Part shown: piece by piece, positions 1 through 61,072 of the stretch | Layout of the letters: each line of letters opens with the position of its first letter | Position numbering within the stretch: position 1 is the first letter of the stretch | Origin: Lophium mytilinum | Lineage: Eukaryota | Length of the DNA stretch: 64,000 nt | Assembly: GCA_010093605.1 (NCBI GenBank) | Contig: MU004202.1 | Coordinates: forward strand, 11,560-75,559 | Reading direction: 5' to 3' | Program-made: the position numbers and the translations under genes | The notes under the pieces: model-generated | Databases searched by the model: none | What the model saw: only the letters and a program-made list of their open reading frames with translations | What the model was told of the DNA's origin: nothing

Positions 1-4
1 TCTT

Positions 5-455
5 ATATTATAGTAGTTCTATATAGTGCTAGTTAAGGTCTTATTAAGTATAAGGCTAGTATTATACTAAACTCTTTAAGTAACTTCTATTATTTAGAAT
101 CTTACCTCTATATATAACTGCTACTACTACTATAGCCTATATATTAATTCTAAGTTAATAGATTACTATTATATTATATATTATATATAATTCTTTATAT
201 ATTTCTTTTATACTATATTATAGTAGTTATATATAGTAGTAGTTATACTAATTCTTAAGTATAAGGCTATTCTTATACTAAACCCTTTAAGTAATTTCTA
301 TTCTATACCTGCGCACTCTATAGCCTCTCTATATCTATTTTAAGCTACTACTATAGCTTATAAATTAAATTAAAGTTAATAGAACGCTATTATATTATAT
401 TCTAAGTATTATTCTTTATATGTATACTCTATTTTATATTATAGTAGTTAAATAC
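5..455. repeat. RIP-degraded tandem repeat, ~210-220 bp unit, ~2 copies
   Basis: tattatagtagtt-like start recurs at ~5, ~215 and ~437; ttaagtataaggcta and ctactactatagc each occur twice about 210-220 bp apart. Confidence 0.6.
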
Positions 456-552
456 AGCAGTGTAAAGTTATACTACACGCAATTCTTAAAGGTTAATTTT
501 CTCTATATTAAACTTACTTCTCCCTATCTAACTCTAACTCTCTAGCCCCTAT

Positions 553-3500
553 AATAAGGCGCGTAGATTTATAAAACTTAATATTATAGCCGCCTTTAAC
601 GCTATTTAAATGTGTAATAGTAATAAGAAGTTTATAGTATTTCTTATAAGATATAGCTTATATAAATTTATAGTCTTGCTATTTAGCCTTTATAACACGC
701 CCTCTACCTTCTAAGCCTATATTAATAATATACTATTAAAGTACCTTAATAATTTTACTATAGTCTATATAAATAATATCTTAATATATATAGAGAAGAA
801 TAATAAAAATATATATATAGTATATATACGCAAGGTACTAGCTAAATTAAATAAAGTAGAACTATTTCTTAATATTAATAAGTATAAATTCTAGGTTATA
901 GAAGTTAAATACCTTAAAATAATTATTATAGCTAACGGAATTAAGATAGACCTAGATAAAATTAAGACTATACTTAAATAGCCTATACTATAGAAGCTAA
1001 AGAATATTTAAGCCTTTCTAGAATTCTATAACTTCTATAGACGCTTTATAGGCCTATTCTTTAATATATCTAGTCTATTAACTATACTAATATTACCTAA
1101 GGTTTATTTTATATTTCTATAGCATGCTAACTCTATATAATAGCGCTACTTCTAGGCTATTAAGAATGCCTTTCGCGACGCTCCTATTATTACTTATTTT
1201 AATTCTATATTAAAAATCTATATATACGCTAACTTATCTAATAAAGCTATAGAAGTAGTACTATTATAAATCTAGGCTAATAGTAAACTCTACCCTATAG
1301 TATTTATATTATATAAGATAACTCTATAGTAAATTAACTACTAGATATATAATAAGAAATTACTAGTAATTATACGCGCGTTTAAGAAATAGTAGCTAGA
1401 GCTACTAGGCTTATAAGACGGCTTTAAAGTATTTACTAATTATAAGAATCTTTAGTACTTTATAACTAGTAAGCAGCTTAATTACTGCTAGGCCCGCTAG
1501 GCTAAATTCCTATTTAAATTTAACTTTAAACTCTTCTAGTAAGCTAGTAAGAATAATACTATAGCTAATAGCCTTACACACCGCCCGGGTAATATCGCGG
1601 AGGATATTAGCAACGAGCGCGTTAAGATTAACTACTAGATAATTCTTAAGTCTAAATACCTAGAACTAGGTATAAATTATACTATTAATTTTACCGTAAT
1701 TCTTACTTATAATAAAGTTATCTACTTTATAATTAACCTAGCTATTACCTTCTACGCAATTAGTAAGTTAGAAGATATTAATAAGGTAAAGTATACTTAA
1801 TATCTAATAACTACTAAGAATATAGTTAATAGTAACTAAGGTTAGAAAGCTAAGCTTACTAAGCCGCGCGCTAATAAGGAATTAGGTACTTAGCACGCAG
1901 CATAGTAGAATAGAGGCAAGTTATTAAAAGACTCTCTAGATATAAGTAAAGCTATTCTAGATAATATCTATATTAAATAGTAGATAGACCTAATTATATA
2001 AGTAATTATTATAGCTAAGAAGAATAGAGTATACTACCTTCTATACGCGCTCTATTAGAAGTATAAGCTCTAGCTAGAACTAGGTAACTACTATATTATA
2101 GGGGGCTTAGTCTATATATATAATTAACTATATATCTCTATAGATAAGAGGCTATATATAAGAGCTATTTAGTATATATATAATCTAAGATCTATAGACT
2201 ATAGTAGTACTACCTCTACCTATTTATATATTACCCGCTTTTATTTCTAGCTAGATATAACCTATAATATAGACTATTATATTAGTACCTATATAATATA
2301 TAAGAAAATAAAGTATATTTATATAGGTAAATATAGGCTTCTTAAACCTCTCTCTATAGTAGACTAATACTAGATAAATATTATAGTTAATTTTATTACC
2401 TCTCTACTAATCTATATATATTATAGCCGGAACTATTAGTATATTATAGTTATATATAATAGGCTTTTATATAAAAAGAAGTTTATTACGCTAGACTCTA
2501 TAGAACTAGCTAATATAGCCTAGGCCTTTATTAAATAGATCTAGCAGGAAGAAGAATACCCGCGTAGTATAATTACTAACTAAGAAACCTAATAGATATT
2601 ATATTTCTAGAAACACCTCTATAAGTAACTTAAAACTAGCCTAAAGCTATCTACTACCTTTTATCTAGAGACTAATAGCCTTACTAAGAGTATAAACCTA
2701 GCCCTTAAGTAGTACCTCTAAGTATATATTAACTATAAATAAGATAACTAGGCTAATTTACTTCTAATTACTAAATTTAAGGTAAACGCTAATATTAACT
2801 CTTTAATAAAGGTCGCTCTATTTCTAGTAATAAAGGGCTATATCTCTTAATTAGGCGTTAAGCTAGCTAAGAACTATAATAGAAATAGTTCTATATAATA
2901 GCTATAGTAATAGGCTAATAAACTAATTAATAAACTTAATAGCTTCTAAAAATAGTATTATAAAGAGCTATAATAGGCTTAGGCAAAATAAAAAGAGTAC
3001 GCTAACGCCTATTAGTAACTAGCACCTAAGCTCTAAAAAGGTAATATAGTTATACTAGATTACTGCTTTATTAAAATATAGCGCCTAAATAAGTTACTTA
3101 ACTATAAGCACCTAGGCCTATACTATATTACTAAATATATTAAGAACTACGCCTATAGGCTTAAACTTCTAGAGTATATAAAGATCTTTCTAGTCTTCTA
3201 TCTATAGCTACTCTATTATATAGATAATACCCGTTCTATAAAAGAATAAACCTAGAAGCTACTAGGGCTAGTACTTATTAATAAAGAAAAATATAATTAA
3301 TATAAGGTTAGATAAATTATTACTATATAATATAATAAGAGACGCTATAATTACTAAAACCCTATAAAGGTATAAGGGTTTCTATAATATAAGGCCCTAT
3401 ACCTAGAATATAATATCTAGAACTAAAACCTACTATAGCAAGACTAGAATAAGTTTAATAATAGCCTCTACCTAGTAGCTAACTAGTACTATAAATATAC

Positions 3501-3560
3501 TAGTAAGCCGCCTTATCTAACTTATATATAACTAGCTAACTAGAAGCCGCTTCTTACCTT
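553..3560 (+). mobile_element. RIP-inactivated Ty3/Gypsy (chromovirus) pol: RT-RNaseH-integrase-chromodomain, 5'-truncated
   Basis: Manual translation gives KARRFIKLNIIAAFN...LLFSLYNTPSTF*AYINNIL...VYINNILIY (RIP form of FTKLD..AF / PFGLxNAPSTFQ / YMDD). Also RNase H NY*IYNKKLL, TNYKNL, R*AR*A; integrase GLLKPL, VNFITSL, TNSLTKS; chromodomain-like L*YKALY...*N*NLL* at ~3.3-3.5 kb. Domain order RT-RH-IN is Gypsy. Confidence 0.92.
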
Positions 3561-3992
3561 AATAAGACTATAATATTACTAAGCTACGCCTTATACTAAA
3601 GCTATAACCTAGCCGCTAGTAGCTAAGTTAATAATAATAGGCTCTTTTATTAAGAACTCCTAAGCTTAGATAAAGAGAAGGCTCTACTGCGCGCACTAAT
3701 AGTAGCTAGGTAAGTTACTTAGCTTACTAATAGTTATAGTTCTTTATATAGAACGCGTGCAACCTCTATAGTATATCTACTTAACTCTATAGTATATCTA
3801 CTTAACTTAGTAGCCTTACTATTTTACTTAGTATAGTAGCCTTACTATAGAAAAAGTTTAGTCTTTCTATTCTCTTTAAATCTATAGTTTCTTTTACCTA
3901 TAGACTTTTCTTTTCTCTTATCTATTATTCTATAGCCTTTCTATTTTATATAGAAGAATAGATAGCTATTAAAGAACTATAGATAGTTCTTT

Positions 3993-4206
3993 AAGGGGGG
4001 GGGAGATATAATAGCTATATTCTACTCTCCGCGTAGGCGTATAGCTTGCGCGCTATTATATAAGTAGGCTATTATATAACTACTATTAGTCTATGCGCCC
4101 TAGCTAAACTATAACTTTAGAGCTAGCGCCGCCCTAGCTTCTTATAGATTCTTTCTAGTTATAATTAATAACCTATTTTCTATAACACCCCTTTAGTTCT
4201 ATAATA
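3993..4206 (+). mobile_element. Polypurine tract plus probable 3' LTR of the Gypsy element
   Basis: AAGGGGGGGGGAG at 3993-4005 directly followed by tataatag...ctataata, interpretable as RIP-mutated TG...CA termini. Confidence 0.6.
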
Positions 4207-4680
4207 ATAACTAATACTATAGAAGCTATATAATTTAATTACTAGACTAGTAGTTTAATTAATTTATAAAGAAGGCCTAACTATAGATATATATAATAAT
4301 TAAATATAATATAATAGTATAGACTATTATAATTACTTAGTAGTAGAATAGTAGCTATAAAGACTATATAGCTTCTTATAGCTCTATTATAGCTAGCTCT
4401 AGTTTAAATAAATAAAGCTACTTATAGTAATACTATATATAGTAATACTATATATAGTAATACTATAATAGTAATACTACTATACTAAAATAGTAAGGCT
4501 ATAGCAGGCTATATAAAAATAGAAAAAATAAATAATTATCTATAAATTAATTTATTTTCTTTATTTACTTATAGCTAAAATATAATTAGATACTTTATTT
4601 AATAGATATTTAAGCGTTTATAGATACTCTAGTATAGAAAGAACTCTCTCTTATAAAAGCTTTAATTAGAAGGCTTCTTT

Positions 4681-4865
4681 AGAGGGGGATAATATATTAT
4701 AGCTATATAATTATATATAATATATAACTAGAAATTATAAAATAAAGGCTCTATAAAATGGATATATATTACTTCGCCCTTTAGATTATTATAATATCTA
4801 TTCTAGAAACCCTTTCTTTCTTATATTTATCTTTTATTAATATTAATACTATTTAATTTAATAAT
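4681..4865 (+). mobile_element. Second PPT plus LTR remnant (another LTR element)
   Basis: AGAGGGGGA purine tract followed by tattatagc; right boundary approximate. Confidence 0.4.
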
Positions 4866-4919
4866 TCTAATATTTTAACCTTAAGCTCTAATATAGATTT
4901 TTCTACTACTAAGTACTTT

Positions 4920-6450
4920 TATTATTATTTAGTACTATTACTACGCTAATAGCTATATAAAATAAGCTATTTCTAGTAGTTATAACTTAATATAGCCTAG
5001 TTTTATAAGTATACTTAATATTAGCTAGTAGTTACTATTAAATTTTATTATTTCTATTACTACTATTTATTTTTCTATTATAACTATTTACTTTTCTATT
5101 ACTACTAGTATTACTACTATTTAATTTTCTTTCTTTTTTCTAGTATTACTACTAGTAGCTATATAAAATAAACTAATTCTACTAGTTTTAGCTTATTATA
5201 GCTTAGTTTTACTAGTATACTTAATATTAGCTAGTATTTACTATTAAATCTTATTATATCTATTACTACTATTTACTTTTCTATTACTACTAGTATTACT
5301 ACTAGTTAAATTTTTTCTTTTTCTTAGTATTACTACTAGTAGTTACTTATTATAGTATAGTTTTATTAGTAAGCCTAGTATTAGCTTATTATTACTATTA
5401 ACTTTTATTATTTCTATTACTACTAGTTATTTTTTCTACTATTTAGGTATATTACTAAGCTAGTAGCTATATAAAATAAGCTAATTATACTAGTTTTAGC
5501 TTATTAAAGCTTAGTTTTATTAGTATACTTAATATTAACTAGTATTTACTATTAGGTTATATTATTTCTATTACTACTAGTATAACTACTATTAAAAGTA
5601 TTACTACTAGTAGTAGTAGTATTATTAGTTAGTATTATATTAATTATAGTAATAATTTAATAGTAGAGGTCTACTATATAAAAGTTTAGCTAAAAGAAGT
5701 TACTTCTAAGTATAGGTAAAGTCTTCTAAGCGCGTTCTAAATACTTACTAGGCTATAATAGATTTAGTAGCTTTAAGCCCGTAGAGCCCGCGGTCGCTAC
5801 CTAAAATAGGGTCGAGTACTTCTTAGGTATAGGAAAGGAGCTTTCCCCGCGTTAGCGGCATAACCTTCGCCCGGCTAAGTCGGTCCAGCATATAAATGCA
5901 TTATAGGAGAAGACCTTTAAGCTTTATAAACCCTTACGCTTATCCCACAATTAATGTAAGGCGACAGGATGGAAACTAAGACCGATTTAACGTCGGCATA
6001 ACAGCCTAGCCGGAAAATAAACTTGGCCTCGTTACCCTATAAACCTAATACAGGAAATACTAACAAGAGCCAAGAGGCGCATCTAAGAGCCTTTAGGAGT
6101 AACGAAGTGTAGCACGGTTTTCGGGAGTGCTACGTTAGAGACGAACGGAAGCATGGAACGTCTAAGAAGAGGTCGCGACACAAATCTAACCTCGCAGTTA
6201 GTGGGAATCCCCTTCGCGAGCTCGCGGTGCTCTTGCGACGTAGACAACGCGATAAGCGCTCCCTTATACCTTCGGGTTCTTCGTAGACGTTTCATAATTA
6301 TATTATAGGCTACGGAGCGCTTTCTAAATCCCCAGGCCCTGCATAGTCGCCCCATAGCGTAGGCAGAAGCTTAGAGACGAGATGTAGAATATACGCAATT
6401 GCATCCGCAACACAGGAACAACTGTACGGTCGCGGCTTAGTACATTAGAA
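4920..6450 (-). pseudogene. RIP-inactivated gene with Gln/His-rich tandem-repeat C-terminus
   Basis: Minus frame reads YMLDRLSRAKVMPLTRGKLLSYT*EVLDPILGSDRGLYGLKATK... into runs such as TAG TAG TAA TAC TAG TAG TAA TAG AAA (= QQQHQQQQK if CA->TA is reversed). Stops read in this frame (5466-5950) are TAA/TAG. Repeat unit starts at 4951, 5157 and 5465. Confidence 0.6.
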
Positions 6451-8456: not shown

Positions 8457-9175
8457 CCCTTTTTAGTAGGCGTACACTCCCCTCTGGTCCAATCTTTTAA
8501 TTGGTCAGGAGGGCTCGGATCACTGCTCCGGCGCTTAATTCTAACGCGCATCTGTACAGCCTCTCCATTATATCGTGTATTCTTTCTATTTCCTGTCGAG
8601 TATATGGGCTATTATACTACTACCTACATGCCTCCAAGCCTATAAGCATGCCAAAACTATCAAAATCGCCCCCTAATACGGCTTAGTTACATTATTCCTA
8701 GCCCTCCTCCATCGCCACCGCCTCCATCGCCGCTTAATCCATGATAAAGCTGAGGAAAAGCGCTATCCTGCCGCTGTACTGCCTTCTTCCATGGTGCTCC
8801 AAAGAGTTGTAGGCCCGTGGCCGTGGCGGCTGTATTGTGGTGGAGGATAAGGATATAAGGATTAATTATTTGTAGCCACGCCGCATTTGGAGAGTCGGAG
8901 GCCTCGGAAGGCCCCTCCGGACCAATCACAAGGTTAGAAGAGAGGGGAGTGTACGTCTACCAAGAAGGGGGGGTACGTCTACTGAAAAGGGGGGGTATAA
9001 ATACCAGCGCCCTTGGCCAGTGTTCAATTAATTGGTGGATATCACCCCCGATTGTCGAGATTAGGCGATTCTCGCCGAGATTCCTCGATTGGTGTTTGGG
9101 GAGTCACAGATCCGAGCGCTCCGGGTCAATCAGAAGATCAGACGTAAGGGGGGGTGCATCTACCAAAGTCGGGGA
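8457..9175. repeat. Three copies of a ~60-bp unit (one inverted, two direct) plus extra GGGG..TAC sub-motifs
   Basis: 8466-8485 gtaggcgtacactcccctct is the reverse complement of 8941-8960 at 19/20. 8905-8965 and 9110-9170 share ctccgg..caatca.aag.t.aga....agggg.gtg..tctacc. 8488-8521 matches the reverse complement of 9109-9142 at about 26/34. Confidence 0.75.
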
Positions 9176-9686
9176 GTGTGAAACTACGATAGGGGATGTA
9201 GAAATACTCGCCCCCAAAATAAACTCATTTATATACCCCGACTCAAAGCGCTACGCCACAATTATAAACAACTCAGTGACTGGGCCTCGGGGATTTACTC
9301 GGCCTGTGTACGGCTCCGTCAGCAAGGACGATGCTGAGATAAGGTGATGAGAGGAAGTGGAGATCCCACGCGACGTCACGTGGATCCGGCTACAAAGGGG
9401 TGAATGCCCTCCTTAAGCTTCTCCAGCGGCCCGGTATCTGGGAAAAAGGACACCTCACGGTGACGCGCCCGAGGTCCATCCAGCAGAGTGAACACCTACC
9501 TATACACCTCCGTCCCATTCACTATCCTCATCATTCTCTACCCCTTCGATGTCTGCTACCGCGTCACTAATGTGCTTTCTCCTTAACGTCCTCCCCTATT
9601 TAAACTCCACTCCATTTGCAAATCTCTATCACACACCCACCCTCCCACACCTCCACACCCTCAAACCCACCAATCTCAAAATCAAA

Positions 9687-17573: not shown

Positions 17574-19942
17574 CTAGAACAGCAGAAGACCTGGATTTTT
17601 CGTTTGCATTAGCACTTCCCAATGAGCAGGTTCGCCGCTAATATGTCTTCGCCATATTTCTTCCATTATCTTGTGGGCGCTCGAAATGTTACCAAATCCG
17701 ATAGTGTTTTCCATAATGTTGATCCGGTATTCCAATGTCAGCCGATTGGCTTTGGTAACACTTCCAACACCAGCCATGAAAAGTGGAAATAGTATATGCG
17801 TTTCCATTTGCGAGCCTGGCCGTATCAAAGAAAGTGCAGAAATAATGTTCTCGGTGGGCCCTTTTGTGCGAGCCTCGTCGTTGACAGAACCATGGATAGC
17901 CTGGCGAAGCCGTAGAATAGAAGCCCATTGAATGGCGAAAGCAGCTGCCCTCACTTCCGTCGCATCTATATGCGGTGCTAGATTTTCGGGTGGACTCCAG
18001 CTTTGTAGCAGGAGTTCGATAGCCTCAGCTTCAAAGTGGAGGGCCTGCTCTTTGACTACATCAGGAAAGTTGAGGGCGGCTCGTTGAGCTACTAGTCGAT
18101 TTATGCGAGGAAGTAACTGGTAAAGCTCTCCAGAAATACCAACCAAAGGGTGTATAGTAAGCCCATCTCGTCGTTTAGAGGACTCCCAGAGGTCTAATGC
18201 CGTTCCGCAAATCCGCGGCACATTGGTTGATGTGACAGAAGCGATACCTACAGGTGCGGCTGAGTTTTAGAAATGGCCTAAGAAGAGGGTCGTCATACGT
18301 ACAGCAAAGGTAATTATACAGCTCCACGAGAAAGTTGAACGGTGTTCCAACGACCTCGAAATCGATGTGTGATAACAGAGCATGAGCCCCGTGGAGATAC
18401 AGCAGCCACTTCCTCGAGTCCCCTTCACAGATCTGTAGCACCAGATTAGATTCAAGAGCATTTTGTAAGATAAAGCTGTCTAAATCAGCCCGGGTTCACT
18501 TCGGCAATCTTCCTTCCCCATCTCCAGACGTCCTGCAGCATGATAAGATCATGACCACAGGGATCGCACCAAGAGGCACGATCCCGACGGCTCTGATAAA
18601 ACACAAAGCAGAGTCCGGATTTCCGGCTCAGTCCGTGCAGTCATTGGCAACCTCTTTGTGAGAGTTTAATATCACCCAGGGATGCCCTAACATGATCGCG
18701 GTAGGCACACGGATCGCATGATATCATAAGATCTGAACGGTCTTGATAAACATCACGTAGAGTCCAGAAGCCCGATCCAGCCCGTGCTAAACTTAACTTT
18801 CTCAGTGCAAGATTTTGCAACACTAGGAAGTCCGCCAAGGTGATATCATGACTAGCACAACGATCGCACGGATGTCTTATCCGAAGTGGTTCTATCACAG
18901 GTCGAAGAGTATACAAAATTGTAAGACGTACCTCTAGTAAGCACAGCAGTAGGGTCCCTGCGAGGGCCCACACTACAGTGTCTTTTTGGTCAAGCTCTGC
19001 TTTAAGGCCCTCTAAGGCTCTCGTTCTATGAACAAGTAGATTTCGCGTAAAGTCGGGATACACTTTGGAGAGATGGCAAGCCGATAAGGCAGCCAAAGCG
19101 TTTCGAACAACACGATTTTCCAACGCCATGGGTACGATGAAGCGAAGGAAGGGGTTGTACTCGTCACTAACCACTACCAGAGAGCGTGATACGGATTGGA
19201 GAAAGTGATTCAGCAGGTGCCTCTCGCCTATCGTCCACTTAGACAGGGCTTCGGGCGTTATTCCCGTAAGATTGCCGAGAGCGGTAGCTGGTAGGGACGC
19301 AAAGCTAGCATCAGGGGGTTCCTCGTCGCTAGCACGCTCGTGCGGCAACACCTTCAAGGCGCTGCTATTCGCCAAAGTGCCCTTCTTCAATTCGGAAGTG
19401 TAATCCTCCTCTATGACCGTAATCCAGTCAAACAGCGAAGATGGCGGCTCATCCATACCCGTGGTGTGTCCACGATTAGCCGCATGATTCCCGTTCGGTA
19501 CAGGGGTTGGACTCAAACTGTCCACGTGACTTCGAGACGGCGTACTCAATTGACCAGGCGAGGCAGAAGGCGACGCTCCGTATCCCGACGGCGAACGCGA
19601 CGGAGTCGTCTTAAAGGCGCACACCAAGCTCAATCTCTTACAATCTCCACAAATCGGCCGCGCTTCGTCACACTTCTTCCGCCTATTTCGACAGCTATCA
19701 CAGCCTCCCGACGACCTAGAGTGCTGAGCCCTAAATCTAGTCCTTTTGGCGGCAGAGGCAGTGGGTCGTTGTAGGCCTTGTGGGGCATCATCGTCTTGTT
19801 GTGTCGTAAATGCGGCCCGTTCGTCGTGGTTCCCGAGGCTGCATGCCAGAGAGAGCCGCTTGCAACGCGCACAGGGTGCTTCCTTAGAGCAAACGGTCTT
19901 GATAGCTGCGCAGGTCTGGCAGGCGGTCTTCTTGCGGCCCAT
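17574..19942 (-). CDS. Fungal transcription factor with two Zn(II)2Cys6 clusters and a C-terminal Fungal_trans_2-like domain
   Basis: CQTCAAIKTVCSKEAPCARCKRLSLAC and CDSCRNRRKKCDEARPICGDCKRLSLVC; NPFLRFIVPMA, LLCLLE|ICEGDSRKW..YLHGA, FPLFMAG; introns 18433-18931 and ~18248-18301. Confidence 0.9.
18480..18900. repeat. ~150-bp tandem repeat (about 3 units) inside TF intron
   Basis: caca..gatcgca at 18556, 18706 and 18856 (exact 150 spacing); tgataaa, agagtcc and cag.ccgtgc also recur about 150 bp apart. Confidence 0.8.
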
Positions 19943-29145: not shown

Positions 29146-31418
29146 CTACGCTCTCGGCTTGAAGTCAACTTTAACGCCCGGACGCGGCAGCGTTAGTGTC
29201 CTCCAGTCCAATGTATGCTTGCCAGTCTTCTGTACCATCTCCGGCTCGTAGTTCTCTAAGATGTGCACCATGATATGCTTCATAACGTAAGACACGAAAT
29301 AGCGACCCGGGCTGTTCTATCTGTTAGCTTGTTGATCTCACACTTATCGAGACGAGAAGAAGATCATAAGTCTAGGCACACGAATCATCACTGCTTGGCT
29401 AGAGGCTTGCTCGCTCGCCGCCATCGTATGGGGTAGCCTGGCTGTTCCGCTGCCAGCCAGTCAAAGGACAGTCTAATTTGCACTGCTTGAGATTCGACAT
29501 CGTCCTTGGATCTGGAAATCCAGTGGGTGTCTTCAAAGCGGTGGCGAACGCGTGTGCATAAAATTATGACCTGTCACTGTAGGTACGTACCAGGTAATCC
29601 TCCCGGTGCCCCAAACCTGCCAAGTATCGGAGATATCCGTGAACTTGGAGGGACCCTCTGGCTGTATTGATGGGGCTCCGCCTACGAGCTCGGGCGAGGC
29701 GAAACGAAAGCCGTTGAAAGTGTCGGGCTGTGGATAATAGGAGGCGTCGCGGAGCATCGGGCCAACTGGTATACAAATCCAGTTGCCCTTCTCGACGTGC
29801 GTTCCATTCGAGAATGTGAAGTCTTTTAGAGCACAGCGGCGCGTTGTGACTGGTGGGCGTTAGCTATCTCTGTATGGTTACGCATGGCAGGGGAGATATA
29901 CCTGACTCGACAGGGGTCCATCGTGACGATTCTTTGAGGAAGCTGTCCATGAGTGGCAGACCTTCTCCCTTTACGAAGAATTCGCCACCAGCTGGGCTTT
30001 CCATCTCTTCTCGTAGCGGTTGTATGTATTCTGGGTGAGTGGAGAGGTTGAAGAGTGCGAAGGTGAGGGTCTAGTATTCTTCATTAGCTTTGAGATGATG
30101 ATGAAGAGATAATGCCGTACAGTAGCTAGCCCTTGGACTGAACCAAACCAGATTGCCATTACCTCGAAAGCCATCCTTCCTGGTGACCATGGATTCGACT
30201 TCGGAGAGGTATCGATGATCCATTGAATAACATCGTTCTTTATCTTGAAGTCAGTAACTTCATACTTCAATCTATCAATACCAGAACACATACATATTTC
30301 TTGTCTGGGCTTGGCGCGTTTACTCTCTCTTCGATCATTTCAACGAGGCCATTGTAGAAAGTTCGCTGTCTTCCAAGAAAAAGCGGTAGAACTTTTCCAA
30401 CGACACTAGGGATGAATTCAGTGCCCATTCACATTATGTTGTTCCAAATTTCTTACGGTACAAGGAACTGAGGGATCAGCCGTAACACTTCGGCGCCGTA
30501 TAGGACGTCTTCATTATAGTAATATGCTGCATCCATGAACGCATCGTCTTCCACTATAGCATTCCGTTAGCAATGACCGTAGAGAGACCAGGATGTGGAG
30601 GAGGTTACTCCGATCCCGTCCAAAGAAAGCAAGTCCGCTGATTTTTGTCACAACCTTCTTTACTAGGCTCAACGCTATCAGTGTGTCAGTTATAACCCTC
30701 TTGATCAGGCAGGCAGATATTACCATTGATACTCCCTCCTCTCCCAACCTCGTCTGCGAAGGTTCGTTCGATGATCACTCGAGTGCCAGGAGTTAGCTGT
30801 GGTAGATGTTGTGTCAAGAGCGTTCGTAGGGTGCGAACGAAGCCGATGCCTTCGATGCCCCTCTGGTCATGCCAGTTGAAGCCGTTCATGGTATATTCAG
30901 GTTGCAGGATCTTACAGATTAGCGTTGGAAAATCCAAGATGCTTTCCCATTCTCACCTCCTTTGCAGCTGCGTGAAGAGATAGTTGATCGTTAGTAGCAA
31001 GTGCGATGTCCCTGACATCTTTCGGAGAGGACACGATGGTCATGAGGCTTTCTGGCGACAGAACTTGGAAAGCCTTCCCTTTGGCCTACGGATCTCGTCA
31101 ATTGATCCTTTCACGAAGAGAAAGCTCACTCGTTGATAACTAACCTGTGAATACGCATCTTGAATGACGCCTTTCGCCGTTATAGGATATGTGTTGAGTG
31201 CTACTCTATCCTGTATGTTTTTTTTGGCGACTCGCGCAAGTGCCGCTAAGGATGACAATGGGGATTTCTAGGCACTATCAATATACCGCTGCAGTGGATA
31301 AAGATGCATGAGCACGGACCGAGTGAGCGAGCCATAGCAGAAAAGCTCCGCAGGCCAAGACGGCAGAGCGGGAGCCAAGAACGACGGCATCAAGCGAAGT
31401 AAGACTGTACAGAAGCAT
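29146..31418 (-). CDS. Cytochrome P450 (ent-kaurene-oxidase-like fungal clan), multi-exon
   Basis: N-terminal TM MLLYSLTSLDAVVLGSRSAVLACGAFLLWLA, IWFGSVQ, KESSR (ExxR), FNGFRF; heme motif WGTGRIT-C-PGRYF whose Cys codon is split by intron 29312-29590. Confidence 0.88.
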
Positions 31419-36320: not shown

Positions 36321-37434
36321 GGGTTATTCTTGCTCCAAATGCATGAATTCTATGAGTTCTAATTCCCATGATAGCCAATCAAGCATAATGCTACTTGTTG
36401 ACGATGTGCTTCCCACCCGAATACTATTACAGGGTTTCGAATACCATGGCTTGAGGGCTTCTGATTTAAGATATGCGGTACATCTCCTAGCATCTTGCTC
36501 GAAAGTCTAGATGATCGCGACTTGATCTCGTAACATTTTAAGGGAGTAGTACAATGATCTGACGTCACCTCATTTGGACATCCTACAATCAACACCTTAT
36601 CTAGACCACAACTTCTCTCTCCTTACTTCTCGGCGCATAACCACCATCCCAGCTGAAGCTAACTCGCGCGCGAAAACCCTAACCATCTCATCGGAGATCA
36701 ATGCATTCGGCGCTAGAGTACCTCACGCTCTACACAGTGTAGAGATCAGCACGGACTTCGCGCCCAGACAATTGTCAATGCTTGTTTCGGCCTTCGGATT
36801 CAAATCCCTGGGGAGATCGGAATGAAAGTTCCAGATAGTGCCAGGGGGGCAAATCCCTGAAATACACCTCTACGTGAAGACCGCGCGGAAGTCCCATGCT
36901 ATGCAAATGCGACGGAAGACGCCGACTTACGGTTCAGCATCCTAGACAAGTATATGACCCCATGGATCAAGCCGTCCGAGATGGTGTTCAGCGTGGGTGG
37001 TGCTGTTATCGCAATTTCAAGGGAGGGTGGGTTGTGCGCTGGTAAGGATGGTAAATGTTTCGCGGTGCGTAGTCCGGGTGAGCATTGATCTTCTTTGGAA
37101 TCTCAGACAGTTTTCTTTTGGAATCTCCAAAACTGTACGCCAACCGTTGTAGCCAGTAAGTTAGAGAGCGGTCTGATTTGTGCTGCTTCAAAAGTTGACA
37201 TCGCGTGTAGACTTTCAAAACTTATGGGGGTACCCCAAGCAGTAGTAGTCTAAACGAATGTGCACAGACTTATGGCCGGTCTCTGGATATCTCTTTACAT
37301 ATTTTATTAACAAAGGCTCGACTCTACTACAATGCAATACAAAACCTACACTGTCATTGCCGCTAAACAAAAGACTGCATATCATGAAATGACTCAAGAA
37401 GGCCGCGTAAATTTCCAAACCCAACGATTGGTTG

Positions 37435-40597: not shown

Positions 40598-41242
40598 TGT
40601 AGATTGCAGGCCGTAGCATCTGATATTGGGTTGGGACGCTACATTATGTACATGGAACGACCCTGTTTGCTACTAGCATTGATTGCTGTGGGTGATTGTT
40701 ATAATCCAACAGCCCCTCTCAAGCGCTTACAGCAAGAAATAATAGTGGGAAACCTCCTTGATGGAGAGTATCTAGTGATGAAAGATAGAAGGGAGCGTAT
40801 GCTGATGAGGCCAGCAAGGACCGTGTGATGGCTGAGAGAAGCGGCATCCTGTGAAGATGATGATGATAATGGAGGAGAGTATTGTGGTGGTGAGTGAGAG
40901 AATCGTCCGGTATCGATGATGGCTGAGAACCTGTGGTGATGGCTAACATCTTGTGGTGATGGCTGGTATCCGTATGGCGATGGCTGTGCATCTAGGAATG
41001 CATCGAAGAAGGCATCTAGGAAAGCATGTTGATGATGGTGGACGTGAGAGTCTGCTAGTAACACCCTGCAGGAACGGGCGGACGACCTAACTTAGGCGGC
41101 AGCGTTGAATGAAGCCGGGCTCATTACCTGTAGATTGCAGGCCGTAGCATCTAATATTGGGTTGGGACGCTACATTATGTACATGGAACGACCCTGTTTG
41201 CTACTAGCATTGATTGCTGTGGGTGATTGTTATAATCCAACA
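40598..41242 (-). mobile_element. Non-autonomous miniature LTR retrotransposon (TRIM, Copia-type priming), 645 bp
   Basis: 114-bp LTRs at 40598-40711 and 41129-41242 (TG...CA, 113/114 identical); TSD AACTT at 40593-40597 and 41243-41247. Minus-strand PBS GGTAATGAGCCC directly after one LTR and PPT GAGAGGGGC directly before the other. Confidence 0.95.
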
Positions 41243-55343: not shown

Positions 55344-57590
55344 ATGAAGGCCATGGCCTCAACCCGTCGCCAGCCCGCTCTGCAGATTTTTCAGGATCCC
55401 GTCTCACCAAGCCACAATGAAGTCGCTGGCTTCGAAGCACAACTCCTCTCCGCCCTGGGACCCATCACCGACGTGTCATTCGACCACCACACCCTCCTGA
55501 ACCCGCCAGACTCGCAGGAGAACCTCCCCTCACCGCGCAAAACGAACCGCGTCTCCAGCTCTCCACCTCCACACGCCCTCTCCGAGGCTTCGCTCAACGC
55601 CATTTCCATCCCACCTCCCTCCGAAGGCGTCTTCGCCACCGACTCCCCAATGAAGCGTGTTCCTCGCCCACAGCAGAAGCAGGCAAAGCTGCTTGCCAAG
55701 GATCCAAACGCCCTTTTCACTACCTTTCCGTCCGCCCAGTTCGATAAGGAGAACGCGTACTCAGCCTTGCCCACTGTACCATACTCAGATCCCATCTACG
55801 GCCAGAAGGGAGCCGGAAAGCGCACCTTGATGGACGCTGCTCCTCTCCGCGACCGCAAGGACAAGAAGCCAAAGACTACCGATGACGACATCAGTCCACT
55901 TCCCGATTGGGATCAGATGCCCGATGTTGAAGACGATGGCGGTAAGCCACCATTCAGCTACGCTAACCTCATCGGTATGGCCATCCTACGATCTCCACAA
56001 CGTCGATTGACCCTCGCCCAAATCTACAAGTGGATCTCGGACAACTTCGTCTACTACCGCCAACCCGAGACAGGATGGCAGAACAGCATCAGGCATAACC
56101 TCAGCCTGAGCAAGACCTTCCTTAAGCAGGAACGACCAAAGGATGATCCCGGAAAGGGCAACTACTGGTACATCAAGCCTGGATGTGAGAAGGCCTATCA
56201 CAAGGCGAAGTCATCGCGTCGTATCACCAATCCCGACGGCTTCGTCAACTCGAGTGGGAACCTGCCACGCCCTTCCACCTCCTCTGGAGAGCGTTCGTTT
56301 GCTGTTGAGTCTAGCGCTGTAAAGAATGTCGACTCGGCCAAATTCCCGGATGAGACAGAGCTGTCATCAGACGCCACCATCCCTTGCTCGGACCCAGCTG
56401 CACACGACGGCCAGCAGGTCGAGCACCATATGCCACCTCCATCGCGCACTCAAATTCCCTCGTCTCCACCGCCCGCGGATATTCACTCCTCCCCGCCTCC
56501 GCCCATCACGCGTTCTATGCGCGAAGGCACGCCCCCACGCGTGCCTCGCTACCCCACCCAGAGCCGTTCTGGCGGACGGAAGCGCAAGTTCGGTGGACTA
56601 GGCGACAGCGGCTACTACTCCTCCATTGAGTCGTCTGCTATGAAAGGCAACCCACTGGGCGCGCTCTTGACTTCTGAGGCTGACATCGACCGTCCCGTCA
56701 TCAAGCGAGGACGCGCTGAGGAGGAAATTGCTCGTATTCGTGGATCGTCATACGAGAGCCCTTCGAAGACGCGTTCTTTCCTGAAGCCACCAACCACTTC
56801 CGGAATCCCGTCTTCTTCGCCCTTCCGGGGGTTCGGCGCGAATGTTGAGGATCCTCTCACTCCTGCTGTCATCTTCAAGCGACCAACCCTCCCACCGCAA
56901 TCCGTCTCTCCCAACACCAACCTTCGCAACCACCGCAACCGCATCCGTGAGATGCTTGGTGGCTCGCCAGACCAAACCTTGGGCATTATGATCGACCCTC
57001 CTTTCTCCTATCAAAATCCGTATAGCCCAGCTGTCCAGATCCCGAACGAAGAAAGCTTCAACCTTCACGAAAATGGTTTCCATGACAACTTTGACGTCTT
57101 CGCCGAACTCACCAATCAGGACTCCCCGTCGAGGCCATCAGCAAAACGACCACGTCTGGAACGTGCGGCAACCACATCTGGCATTCTCGCCGACATCACT
57201 GGCACCAAGTCGAACGCTCGCCCGAGCACTTTGACACCAGGCAGCTGGAAATCTCCCTTCCTGAACTTCCCTGCTCTTCAATCACCACGCTTCTCCCTCT
57301 CGCCCGTGAAGGCACCCACTTCAAACCCGCTCCAGCTGCCCGAGTCCAATCCGAACGACCTCCCAGAGCTGAACTACAGCCCTTTCAAGTTCGACATGCC
57401 CCAGGGCGAGGACCTCACCCAGCACGACGACTTCTTCGGCGTCAACATCCCCAGCGACGAATCCGACGAACCGAGCTATGACATCCTGAAAGCCTACCCT
57501 CGCATCGGCGCTGCCACGGTCGCACCGAACGGCTCCCCATCCAAGCCAACACGCGCTCCATTTGCTCGCAGCACCACGACGCGCTTCTAG
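55344..57590 (+). CDS. sep1: Forkhead transcription factor (Sep1/Hcm1-like)
   Basis: [58 protein letters not shown]; single 748-aa ORF with many SP/TP sites; no FHA domain seen. Confidence 0.9.
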
Positions 57591-58240
57591 TTGGATACCC
57601 GACGCGTTGGATACACGCGAAATCACCCTTACTTTCTCCACACACTTTTGAAATGTTCTGGCTAAGCGCTTGAAACCTGAACGATGAAACGACTATGATA
57701 CCCATGACTGACCTCCTTGGGTGACACTCCGGCGCCGGCCTGTCTCTTTCTTCTTTCATTGGGAGCTTTGGACCTACTTTTCTTTTTCCTCTTTCTTTTT
57801 CTTCTGCGGCTTTGCTTCTTTTACTTTGCGTTACGAGTGGTTGGGTAGCACGCTAATTGGGTCATGAAATGTGACGCCGTGGTGGTACCTGGTTATTATG
57901 GTTGCTTGTGTTTACATCTGCGTCTGGGTTGTACATAACTTTAATGAATTCCCTAGGATCTGGGGGCATGGGGTGCCTGCTTTTACGGCTTTTTGTTCAC
58001 GGCTTGGGGGGGTATACGTGATGCTAAGGGACTGGTTCTGCTTGATGGAACGGCTAGATGAATGAAGCAAAGTACAGTTATTGAAGATCTTGCGCATGTG
58101 ATGGTTATGGGGGTTGTTCTGATTGATGGAATTGATGGGATGTGAATGAGGCGCTGTATGCTTGTTGACGCCACGTGGTAATCGCACGTGATGTAACTTC
58201 TTGTGCTTGTAGTTCCTAAGCTGTAAATCGGAGTGCGCAG

Positions 58241-58890
58241 ATGAGCGTGCTGGGTGTGTGTATGGTATGCTATGGCACTCCTTGGTGTTGCACCTTTTCA
58301 ACTTGTGGATGTCATGTTCCAAAGGCCGTGGACTAGACCTTCTAGTTTGCTTATTGAGAATTGCTTAGGCAGATCGAATCGCACGGGAGAGCTAAGCTCG
58401 CTGGGGTGTGTATAGCATAGTAGGACACCCCCGGAGGTATTCGATTTTCGATCTATGGATGTTTTGATCTAGAGACCGTGAATTAGACCACGCGACTTGA
58501 TCGCTGTGGAAGTGATAGGAGCTTCAAATTATGGTAAGGAGTGAGTCTGCTAGGGGTGTCTCCAGCATATTAGGACACCCCTGGAGGTATTGGTGTTTGG
58601 ATTCGTGGATGTCATATTCTAGGGGTCGTAAATTAGGCCCTATGACTTGAAAGTTGCAGAAACGATTGGTTCTGGACATCGAGGTAGCAAGTCGTGTCCG
58701 CTGGGGGTATGTATAGCAGATCATGGCACCCTTGGGCGCAATGTTTTTTGAGTTCGTGGATGTCATGTTCTAGAGGTCGTGGATCAGCCGCATGACTTCA
58801 AAGCTACGGAAACGGCTAATCCTATATATCGAGCTATATTGACGAGTCTATTGGGAGTGTAGACACTATATTGGCGTACCCCTAGAGGTA
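58241..58890. repeat. Degenerate tandem array of ~150-bp units (about 4.3 copies)
   Basis: tggatgt at 58306, 58456, 58606 and 58757 (periods 150, 150, 151); taggacaccc at 58421 and 58571; gactt at 58494, 58644 and 58794. Confidence 0.9.
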
Positions 58891-59035
58891 AGGAGGAGAA
58901 GAAGAAGGAGAAGAAGAAGAAGAAGAAGAAGAAGAAGGAGGAGAAGAAGGAGAAGAAGGAGAAGAAGGAGAAGAAGGAGAAGAAGGAGAAGAAGGAGAAG
59001 AAGGAGAAGAAGGAGAAGAAGGAGAAGAAGGAGAA
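58891..59035 (+). repeat. Compound purine microsatellite (GAA)n/(GGAGAAGAA)n
   Basis: About 145 nt of pure purine triplet/9-mer repeats. Confidence 0.95.
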
Positions 59036-60560
59036 ATAGAGACGGAAGAGGAACCAGTGAGTACAACTCCTATTAACTGCAGCTTGAGCATCGGCTGATA
59101 TCCATGTAGCCTGCCCCCGCCCCAAATCGCCGCAAGGCGAACGACCACGACCACGACCACGGTGATGACGATGACGACGACGACGACAACACCAAGGTCG
59201 AGAAGAAGGCAGACGAGGGCATGGTGGAGTGGATGGACGAGCAGAAGAGGCTCGAGATTGCGGCCTATCGTAAGTAGTAAATACGCAGTTGATGTGACTT
59301 GTACTAACACATGTGCCGTAAAAGGCCCATCCAGCGCAAGCGAGGACCCGGTTGCCCAATGGTAGGATCAGCAGTCGGACGAGGTAGAGTTATGTGGTTG
59401 CATATCAGAAGGCACTATGGAGCTGTGAATGGAGCTGTAGAGGCGAGTACGTTGGGGGGGATATCGGGGTGAAGGAGGCGGTCATGGGGATTTGACGGGA
59501 TGTAGGTTGAGAATCGGGAGGCACTGTATGGGTGAATAGATATTGCTTGATAGGGAACATGGTCTTGAGAGTGAGATAGCTTTGTAGGGAGGGCCCTGGT
59601 TAGTAAGTAGTGGAGAAGGAAAAGAAAACACTGGGTCGAAGTGGGATGCCGATTACATCGTGTTAGGTTATTGGGGGGTTTATGGGGGATGGATTATAGA
59701 GCAGCGGAAAGCCTCTTTTATGGTAGATATAATCTGCGAAACTATTAAGACTTCAAAATCATGACTACCTAAGTCGCAATTCAACCTTACCCTTAATTTC
59801 CTTAGGCGACTTTTGGTATAATCGAGCCCTCTGTGTCCTCAGGCGACCGCTGGTTCAAAAGGCGCGTGGTTTCTTGCTTTTGGTTTTTAGACTGGGTGAT
59901 ATGTTTTGCTTTTACGGTTGTAGTCCTACCGCATGCAGTGAAAGGATGGACGCGGAAATCTGGAAGAAGAGTGTGTATTGACTGATTTGATGGGTTGTTT
60001 TGGATTCTACCTGACTATCTAATAGCTCGGGGTCCAGTCTTGCTCACTCGACGCCACTGTTAGGAGAATCCCGCATGGTAGACAGCTGGTCAGTCAAGCG
60101 CTAGTCAAATCTGCACTGTAATGGCCTTTAAAGCTTGTTGACAGTCTGAATATGAATGAGTATGCTTATGCCAAGAAAACAGAATGATCAGATCCCGTTG
60201 GTATCGAGTGAGTGACGACACACCTTTTTCCCAGATTCTTCGAGCTTGAAATCAGATCCAAGATCGTGAAGCTAAGTCCAGCATAACGCAGCCGTATCCC
60301 AGAATCAAAGCTAGAAAAGGCCAATGATTTGAACGCAGGCGTGGGTATCCTTTTCCCTGCGGCAATCTGTAGTCGTACAGCCGATGCCGTTGCCTCAGGG
60401 TATAACAGTTCGTCCTCCACAGATGACTTATTCCTCTGTCAAGATGGCCCAATCAGCCAGCCCGTTCCCTCATTTCCAGCCAATAAGATAGGGGGTTAGT
60501 CTTTCTGTTGCGTTCCACTCGGATAGTATCGTGGTGTTGATGCCAGTAGAAGACGGCGGC

Positions 60561-61072
60561 CTAGTCCCCAGAAGAGCATCCCCGGCACCCACAGCTCACA
60601 CACTGAATATCCTGTCCATCCTTCAGCTGCTCCCTAGGCACACGGCAGATGCAGGTGGAGCTGAAATTCGTCTCTTTGGTTTGGATGCAGCGGACACAGC
60701 ATAGCTACATCAGATGCATTAGCCTCCATCTCACTTCTGCCTTCCGCTACTTCAGGATGTACGTACCTTCTCATACCCCATCTTCTTCCACTTCGCGATA
60801 AGCATCGCATCCGCGTACCCGTTCTTGATCAACCAGTCATACAACGTCTTGCTAATCGCCTCCTTCTCGTAGTACAGGTCGTAGATGTAGCGGCTCCGCT
60901 GATGCGTGATCTGGAAGATCGGCCATAGTGTTTCGTACTTCTTCTTCCCTTCATGAGAGGCGTTCTCGGCGTCCTTCATCTTGTTGCTGAATTCGAGGAG
61001 GGTGTCCTCGATGTCGCTGAAGCCTTCTGGGGGCGGCTTGCGAGAGCGCGCATGGGTACGGGTTGGGGGCAT
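60561..61072 (-). CDS. BUD31: Pre-mRNA splicing factor Bud31/Cwc14 (G10)
   Basis: [48 protein letters not shown]...CICRVP...CVSCGCRGC; intron 60705-60766. Confidence 0.97.

What the first reader, a model, noticed from the sequence alone, without database searches (positions are those of the whole stretch)
58241..58890. ~150-bp tandem array: best-preserved member of a dispersed repeat family not explained by any annotated feature
Seen: four full units plus a partial, periods 150/150/151, with consensus landmarks tagg(a/g)cacccc.ggaggtatt ... tggatgtcat.ttctag ... a.ttag.cc ... tgacttga. The units are diverged yet hold length, are not RIP-mutated, have no LTR or TIR, and carry no continuous ORF. 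The same landmarks recur in register elsewhere in this window (separate findings). Inference: a genome-wide, nucleosome-sized (about 147-150 bp) repeat that amplifies in tandem inside introns and intergenic DNA. It could be a non-autonomous mobile unit, a chromatin-positioning element, or the relic of a 50-aa repeat gene (minus-strand units read PRPLEHDIH..K....GC).
Basis: partly seen in the sequence, partly recalled or inferred. Interest (0 to 1): 0.75.

Follow-up and report, generated by a model that had tools for sequence, protein, structure and literature searches.

The report
Helically spaced fungal repeat cassettes
This is a real 150-base tandem array from a genome-wide, non-coding fungal repeat family whose copies keep a 31-base box and space it in steps of about one DNA turn, which hints at a protein reading the boxes along one face of the helix; no binding or function has been shown.

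Summary
The array is real: four units plus a partial, spacings 150/150/151, not RIP-mutated, no ORF, no flanking inverted repeats. It belongs to a genome-wide family (327 pattern hits vs 2 control; 301 units collected) with a ~92-bp core ending in a conserved 31-bp box. It is not a 150-bp nucleosome unit or a protein relic: spacings run 98-241 bp, 63 of 148 are under 147, and they ignore reading frame. They cluster at multiples of ~10.75 bp (43 loci, R 0.68, 0 of 3000 nulls), but support weakens when each length class counts once. A ~218-231-bp TA-flanked MITE (363 TIR hits) carries one core lineage; its duplications reach 151, 163 and 227 through different junctions. Box-free duplications are off this lattice. 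Best reading (0.45): an old cassette family whose box binds a protein, with in-phase pairs retained. No binder, recombinase or transposase partner was found. The scan noted what looks like the same family on other pieces of this genome (not matched by sequence), mostly as ordinary satellite, once with a helical-turn idea judged weak.

The parts
58241..58890 (+). Tandem array: four units and a partial fifth; box-to-box spacing 150/150/151 (14 turns of ~10.75 bp)
58247..58339 (+). Unit 1 core (offsets -62 to +30); 31-bp box at 58308-58338
   Evidence: profile score 33.9
58397..58489 (+). Unit 2 core; box at 58458-58488
   Evidence: score 30.2
58547..58639 (+). Unit 3 core; box at 58608-58638
   Evidence: score 34.2
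58698..58790 (+). Unit 4 core; box at 58759-58789
   Evidence: score 25.3
58843..58890 (+). Partial fifth unit: upstream half only, no box; cut by the microsatellite at 58894-59035
29352..29581 (-). Decayed full-length copy of the TA-flanked MITE that carries the same core (box anchor 29500)
   Evidence: TIR-like hits at 29352 and 29581, core score 29.9; 147 matches to a young copy over 29365-29581
37154..37287 (-). Truncated MITE copy: left TIR and core only (box anchor 37200)
18769..18861 (-). Possible lone, degenerate core (uncertain)
   Evidence: score 20.9 vs best of 30 shuffles 15.8; no MITE similarity
55344..58007 (+). Context: upstream gene (748-aa ORF, stop at 57590; forkhead-type by my recall of the domain, not scanned) with an RNA-like contig reaching 58007
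59994..61072 (-). Context: downstream minus-strand transcription (intron 60146-60223) near a BUD31-like exon (name recalled, not scanned); the array lies between 3' ends

Best explanation
An old, lineage-restricted family of non-coding DNA cassettes. Each has a ~92-bp core that ends in a 31-bp box with imperfect dyad symmetry. SHOWN: the family is dispersed genome-wide; arrays are mosaics of cassette types exchanged between loci, with shared blocks ending mostly in or just after the box; box-to-box distances cluster at whole multiples of about 10.6-10.8 bp; one core lineage is an integral part of a young Tc1/mariner-type MITE. INFERRED: the box is a double-stranded DNA binding site for a host protein that acts cooperatively, by oligomerising or bridging, when neighbouring boxes face the same side of the helix. 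Duplications arise with arbitrary breakpoints, but those that leave boxes in phase are the ones retained and copied on. Spread between loci is by ordinary recombination that crosses over in the box, and for one lineage by MITE transposition. The window array is a 14-turn member with its own spacer. Whether retention benefits the host (a chromatin organiser or boundary near gene 3' ends) or only the element is unresolved.
For: Lattice: one value per non-MITE locus, n=43, best period 10.76, R 0.68, phase -0.02, 0 of 3000 jitter nulls. 51 of 61 locus-by-class means lie within 2 bp of n x 10.75. Convergence: MITE-lineage duplications reach 150-152 by two junction types (resuming about -25 and about -2), 162-164 by two (about -10 and about -50), and 227 by two; 9 of 12 events lie within 2.3 bp of the lattice, binomial p 0.025. 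Specificity: 64 box-free duplication periods give R 0.13 at 10.75. Box kept while the rest drifts: cores from different loci average 41% identity, yet four box columns hold 91-95% consensus. Within arrays, box identity 0.73 vs spacer 0.59 in 12 of 13 loci. Gaps per 100 bp are about half those of MITE pairs at 15-35% divergence. No complementary covariation, so recognition is unlikely to be of a hairpin or RNA fold. 10 of 12 between-locus shared blocks end within the box or up to 3 bp after it.
Against: If all arrays of one length share an ancestor, only 9-12 recurring classes are independent. Then 5-30 of 3000 nulls reach the observed R when the period is limited to 10-11.5, and 78-360 of 3000 when it is free. 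With all 18-21 classes counted once, the result is 132-159 of 3000 (limited) and not significant (free). Off-lattice spacings exist (101, 114, 134-135, 144, 154, 211, 230, 241) and the 11- and 12-turn classes are absent from the spacing set. Box conservation is inflated by how units were found: box-ascertained MITE pairs show a similar excess (0.74 vs 0.64) that vanishes in TIR-ascertained copies (0.756 vs 0.739 and 0.731). BLAST ends are drawn to the conserved box in any case. Arrays and MITEs show the same bias to 3' flanks (50 of 77 and 51 of 78; control 383 of 816), so position gives no sign of host function. No array in 839 kb from other fungi, including 16 loci that also carry the forkhead homolog. 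No binding protein was identified.
Confidence: 0.45

Rival explanations
1. Circle-mediated cassette shuffling. Box-to-box segments are excised as 98-236-bp double-stranded circles by recombination between boxes and re-inserted at other boxes. Only whole-turn circles close, so the lattice is mechanical and needs no selection (integron-like, or homologous pop-out).
For: Fitted intercept -0.04 +/- 0.72 and slope 10.75 +/- 0.05, on points already assigned to the lattice. The smallest class is about 98-107 bp. Arrays are mosaics with junctions in the box. Some arrays hold inverted units. Satellite-derived circles in multiples of the monomer are known in plants (PMC2543021, passages). The twist constraint on small circles is recalled, not from a call.
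Against: MITE duplications have breakpoints outside the box (about -25, -50, -80) yet land on the lattice, which box-by-box excision does not create. No match to the tyrosine recombinase family PF00589 (control rang 14 of 14, but the search ignores introns). Relaxed DNA would give about 10.5 (recalled). The plant circles detected ranged from about 500 bp to over 8 kb.
Confidence: 0.2
2. A neutral, decaying dispersed satellite library. A few ancestral monomer lengths were inherited, the box looks conserved because it is what searches find, and the lattice is descent plus chance.
For: The class-level test is weak. An ascertainment effect was demonstrated in the MITE control. Location bias equals that of the MITE. 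The family was not found in other fungi. Earlier notes read it this way (unchecked).
Against: Independent junctions converge on the same lengths. The 159-163 class stays 5 bp wide across 15 loci whose spacers mostly share no detectable similarity. Most large spacing changes inside arrays are near whole turns: 24 of 30 within 2.5 bp. Box-free duplications are off the lattice.
Confidence: 0.2
3. A nucleosome-positioning unit, one nucleosome per repeat, with linkers of the 10n+5 type.
For: Above 120 bp the best period is 10.52 with phase 0.35, compatible with 147 + 10.5n + 4 to 5. Yeast linkers follow 10n+5 (PMC2522279, passages). The commonest class by loci, about 161, and the 172 class match fungal repeat lengths of 161-172 (10.1101/2021.04.16.439968, passages).
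Against: 63 of 148 non-MITE spacings are under 147, including the abundant 105-108 and 139-142 classes. The weak/strong dinucleotide oscillation in the core peaks at 12 bp, not 10. The conserved element is a sharp box, not a 147-bp pattern.
Confidence: 0.1
4. The arrays are decayed internal or subterminal repeats of the MITE or of an older relative that has lost its ends.
For: 24 of 24 TIR-found left ends align over the core. The MITE forms its own tandem duplications. MITEs with internal tandem repeats are known (PMC3879986, abstract).
Against: 40 of 42 MITE cores form one clade inside much greater array diversity (midpoint root, weak deep support). No flanking inverted repeats above null in 68 non-MITE groups. 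Window units are at background identity to the MITE arm.
Confidence: 0.05

Closest known systems
Short-array euchromatic satellite DNA families with a conserved protein-binding box (CENP-B-box-type logic; recalled)
   Same: Head-to-tail non-coding units, dispersed short arrays, one conserved box amid diverged sequence, kept monomer length.
   Different: One core is used with about ten monomer lengths in steps of one helical turn. Arrays are short (2-17 units) and mix cassette types. No binder is known.
Tandem-repeat-containing MITEs (DTC84 of Donax trunculus, PMC3879986, abstract)
   Same: A repeat core occurs both inside a MITE and in tandem copies; copy number inside the element varies.
   Different: Here most arrays have no MITE ends and are far more diverse than the MITE core, so the MITE looks like a carrier rather than the source.
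mimp MITEs of Fusarium (Tc1/mariner, impala-derived; PMC5579170, passages)
   Same: For the MITE part only: 218-235 bp, about 28-bp TIRs, TA at both ends, and the same first four terminal bases as the published mimp pattern.
   Different: The rest of the TIR differs, no autonomous partner was found, and the window array is not a MITE.
Quantised nucleosome linkers, 10n+5 (PMC2522279, passages)
   Same: Spacing is periodic in the helical repeat; classes of 151 bp and above fit.
   Different: Here the periodicity is in genomic repeat length, and it continues below 147 bp.
Integron cassette arrays with attC sites (recalled)
   Same: Mosaic arrays of cassettes bounded by a conserved, partly symmetric site.
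   Different: No genes in the cassettes, no covarying hairpin, no integrase found.

Membership tests
Dispersed short-array satellite / minisatellite | Head-to-tail homologous non-coding units | tested here: met
Dispersed short-array satellite / minisatellite | Related arrays at many loci | tested here: met
   60 arrays of 2 or more units in 91 fetched loci; 43 non-MITE array loci
Dispersed short-array satellite / minisatellite | One characteristic monomer length, homogenised within arrays | tested here: not met
   21 length classes, 98-241 bp; mosaic arrays
Tc1/mariner-type MITE (window array itself) | Terminal inverted repeats around the element | tested here: not met
   no TIR hit near 58241-58890; flank score 14 vs null median 15
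Tc1/mariner-type MITE (the carrier element, e.g. window 29352-29581) | Under 500 bp, non-coding, TIRs, TA at both ends, many copies | tested here: met
   363 TIR hits vs 0 control; paired ends of 218-235 and 382-388 bp. TA was part of the search pattern and no empty site was seen, so duplication of TA is inferred.
Tc1/mariner-type MITE (the carrier element) | Autonomous transposase element with matching TIRs | tested here: inconclusive
   0 of 24 DDE_3/DDE_1 loci had a TIR at 7 or fewer mismatches or a core within about 1.5 kb; only the best candidates are scored
Protein tandem-repeat gene relic | Period a multiple of 3 and a kept frame | tested here: not met
   modulo 3 counts 58/55/60 of 173, R 0.025 at period 3; stops in all frames
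Nucleosome-positioning repeat | Unit of at least 147 bp | tested here: not met
   63 of 148 spacings under 147; the window array itself is 150-151
Nucleosome-positioning repeat | Phased nucleosomes in vivo | not testable with these tools
   needs MNase-seq
Helitron / rolling-circle element | Subterminal hairpin and Rep-helicase partner (features recalled) | tested here: inconclusive
   no covarying stem; PF14214 gave no match but its control rang nowhere
Site-specific recombinase cassette system (integron-like) | Cognate tyrosine recombinase in the genome | tested here: inconclusive
   PF00589 no match, control 14 of 14; DUF3435 no match, control rang nowhere; intron-blind search
Site-specific recombinase cassette system (integron-like) | Excised circular cassettes | not testable with these tools
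   needs Circle-seq or outward PCR
Structured RNA or tRNA-derived repeat | Rfam or tRNA match, covarying pairs | tested here: not met
   only hit E 2.1, far below its gathering score; 0 tRNA genes; no stems
TFIIIC B-box (ETC-type) sites | B-box consensus and TFIIIC occupancy | not tested
   compared by eye with a recalled consensus only; the fit looked poor

The most novel reading that the evidence does not exclude
A eukaryotic modular DNA system in which a 31-bp box is read by an unknown protein that polymerises or synapses only across whole helical turns. The genome record would then show a ruler ticking in ~10.75-bp steps from 9 to 22 turns, with cassettes shuffled between loci at the box, possibly as 100-240-bp circles, and a MITE that captured a box and obeys the same rule.
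Probability: 0.25. Interest if true: 0.85.

Novelty: new variant of a known kind. Interest (0 to 1): 0.55.

Why it matters
Why satellite monomers have the lengths they do is an old question, usually answered loosely with 'nucleosome size'. Here one core occurs with about ten lengths that step by one helical turn, some shorter than a nucleosome, and independent duplications converge on the same steps. If this holds in a full census it is a natural experiment that separates helical phasing from nucleosome length. It also gives a direct test: insert 5 bp or 10-11 bp between two boxes. It would point to an unidentified fungal DNA-binding protein or small-circle pathway. If it fails, this is an ordinary uncatalogued repeat family plus an ordinary MITE.

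Tried and rejected
TRF at score 40 did not report the array. BLAST of the array against the own genome found only itself; the family is too diverged for that. The 4-unit HMM found no significant second site in the window. A sequence-only covariance model was built but could not be run on this genome. A first anchor script mis-registered units after the HMM grew; its spacings were discarded and redone with an ungapped profile. One null simulation timed out and was rerun. Spacer clustering over-split arrays, so I rely on the one-value-per-locus test and the class test. Expression: no RNA holder was listed. One RNA-like run covered 56500-58007 and 59994 onward but not the array, and a relative's run did not cover it either; lack of cover is not evidence either way. 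The forkhead query found no metagenome relatives. A direct motif scan of public collections was not done, so the family's range in close relatives stays open. Rejected readings: protein relic, tRNA or Rfam RNA, hairpin element, array derived from the MITE's 151-bp unit. A mini LTR element was considered and dropped: shared blocks span the supposed internal part and stop after the box, and the upstream end is only weakly conserved. Literature: ten searches found no description of this family or of a helical lattice of monomer lengths. The library lacks most subscription papers. PMC10827815 (one passage) concerns curvature only. PMC12910237 (three passages) does not describe it; its supplements and any repeat library were not read and may hold these repeats.

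Full report
OBSERVATION. The window is fungal-type DNA with a RIP-scarred block at 1-5600; it is G000:C22:11560-75559 of a 43.4-Mb, 49-contig genome. The array is as described: four units with spacings 150/150/151 and 55-68% pairwise identity, plus a partial fifth cut by a microsatellite. All six frames have stops. The composite RIP index is -0.22. There are no flanking inverted repeats. It lies between the 3' end of a plus-strand gene (RNA-like contig to 58007) and minus-strand transcription ending near 59994.

THE FAMILY. Successively broader patterns gave 6, 23, 120 and 327 genome matches against 0, 0, 2 and 2 for the reversed control. I fetched only part of these: 91 locus records, chosen from the listed rows. 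An ungapped 96-column profile found 301 units, forming 60 arrays of 2-17 units and 68 singletons. Conservation spans offsets -62 to +30 and peaks in a 31-bp box (window 58308-58338 for unit 1), where four columns hold 91-95% consensus. The box has imperfect dyad symmetry about its centre, with no complementary covariation among 155 non-redundant units. Rfam and ARAGORN found nothing. A 300-kb random sample held four MITE-type cores, three weak singles and no non-MITE array. The 43 non-MITE array loci found are therefore a lower bound of a class rarer than about one per 100 kb.

THE MITE. The youngest copies sit in an element of 218-235 bp with ~28-bp TIRs and TA at both ends. Its TIR pattern has 363 hits against 0. 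All 24 left ends found by TIR align over the core, with the box about 82 bp in. This resembles mimp in size and terminal bases (PMC5579170, passages). None of 24 transposase loci carried the TIR or core nearby. Two decayed copies lie in the window (29352-29581, 37154-37287). In a tree of 138 cores (at most two per non-MITE locus, all four window units, one per MITE locus), 40 of 42 MITE cores form one clade nested among array cores that average 41% identity between loci. The root is a midpoint and deep support is weak, so 'the MITE captured a core' is an inference. The window units group with array cores from other contigs (best 53-58%) and are at background identity to the MITE arm.

SPACING. 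The 173 same-strand spacings up to 250 bp fall into classes near 98, 107, 140, 151, 161, 172, 184, 194, 203, 211-215, 226 and 236. With one value per non-MITE locus (n=43) the best period is 10.76 bp, R 0.68, phase -0.02, and 0 of 3000 nulls jittered by 10 bp reach it. Above 120 bp alone the best fit is 10.52 with phase 0.35, so the step is 10.5-10.8. The strict test counts each length class once and is much weaker: 5-30 of 3000 for recurring classes within 10-11.5 bp, 78-360 of 3000 with a free period, and not significant for all classes with a free period. The 211-216 class may be dimers of 107. Three further lines support the lattice. First, MITE-lineage duplications reach 150-152, 162-164 and 227 by two different junctions each; 9 of 12 events, which I grouped by hand and one of which spans a masked stretch, lie within 2.3 bp of the lattice (p 0.025). 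Second, 24 of 30 spacing changes of 4 bp or more inside arrays are within 2.5 bp of whole turns; several are dimer steps. Third, 64 box-free duplication periods from the same DNA, a mix that includes protein repeats, give R 0.13. Whole MITE lengths (218, 231, 383) are not on the lattice. Spacings ignore reading frame, and 63 of 148 non-MITE spacings are under 147.

CONSTRAINT AND MOVEMENT. Within arrays the box is better kept than the spacer (0.73 vs 0.59; 12 of 13 loci), and in the window array box identity is 0.71-0.81 against 0.34-0.57 for the in-register spacers of units 1-3. Part of this is ascertainment: the same excess in box-found MITE pairs disappears in TIR-found ones. Gaps are about half as frequent as in MITE pairs at 15-35% divergence, for array pairs limited to length differences of 4 bp or less. 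Arrays are mosaics: of 12 between-locus shared blocks, five end at +29 to +32, five inside the box and two beyond, though alignment ends are drawn to conserved sequence. A crude coding model puts 50 of 77 array flanks and 51 of 78 MITE flanks at gene 3' ends against 47% for controls, so location reflects tolerance as much as function. In 839 kb around the neighbouring gene in 80 metagenome loci from other eukaryotes, apparently fungi, there was no array and one weak hit of 18.4; 16 of these loci also carry the forkhead homolog, at best 70% identical. Close relatives were not sampled.

MECHANISM. I favour (0.45) a protein-bound box with retention of in-phase pairs, because new duplications with breakpoints outside the box still land on the lattice. 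Circle-mediated shuffling (0.2) explains the zero intercept, the ~100-bp floor and the mosaic junctions, but no recombinase was found (two of the three searches are uninformative). Neutral descent from a few lengths (0.2) remains open because the class test is weak. One nucleosome per unit (0.1) fits classes of 151 and above, given 10n+5 linkers (PMC2522279, passages) and fungal repeat lengths of 161-172 (10.1101/2021.04.16.439968, passages), but not 98-142. MITE decay (0.05) is contradicted by the tree and the missing ends. Binding, circles and function are all inferred; none is shown.

KNOWN OR NEW. It works like a short-array satellite with a conserved box and overlaps with tandem-repeat-bearing MITEs (PMC3879986, abstract), but it fails the single-monomer feature. 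Ten literature searches found no description of the family or of such a lattice (listed under Tried and rejected); supplements were not read. Earlier scan notes describe what seems to be the same family elsewhere in this genome; a sequence look-up returned nothing, so identity rests on their wording. One note raised whole helical turns and judged it weak on two arrays. I had noted the pattern before reading that note, and the genome-wide data support it more strongly at locus level while agreeing that it is not proven. Verdict: new variant of a known kind, interest 0.55.

Noticed in passing
window 59243-59384: A 142-bp non-coding segment with intron-like signals has an 87% identical second copy at G000:C17:313567-313707, next to a MITE; it holds no core.
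   Followed up: partly
window 58894-59035 and 59141-59187: A 9-bp purine microsatellite (15.8 copies) truncates the fifth unit; a 3-bp repeat follows.
   Followed up: no
window 60026-60071 and 60127-60147: Short pieces match other contigs of the same organism's DNA run, suggesting another small dispersed repeat.
   Followed up: no
window 8457-8969: 57-bp inverted arms 399 bp apart with further direct copies at 8943-9182; likely another MITE-like element.
   Followed up: no
window 40598-40711 and 41129-41242: 114-bp direct repeat, 99% identical, 531 bp apart.
   Followed up: no
window 1-5630: RIP-mutated AT-rich block containing tandem repeats of period 221, 154 and 206.
   Followed up: no
L061:6520-7480 (G000:C3, about 906.5-907.5 kb): A box-free non-coding array of period 107-110 in the random sample; possibly a second family near the same 10-turn length.
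   Followed up: no
L050:45-1320 (G000:C13, about 516.7-517.9 kb): A complex box-free repeat cluster with periods 148-236 beside a 108-bp box array.
   Followed up: no
L150 (G000:C23:244271-244780): The only DDE_1 match without stops (426-aa open frame) among 10; an intact or domesticated pogo-like transposase, without this MITE's TIRs nearby.
   Followed up: partly
L009/L014 (G000:C5:285896-286352) and L103 (G000:C12:732815-733826): Arrays with inverted units; in L103 two tail-to-tail box pairs both have anchors 74 bp apart.
   Followed up: no
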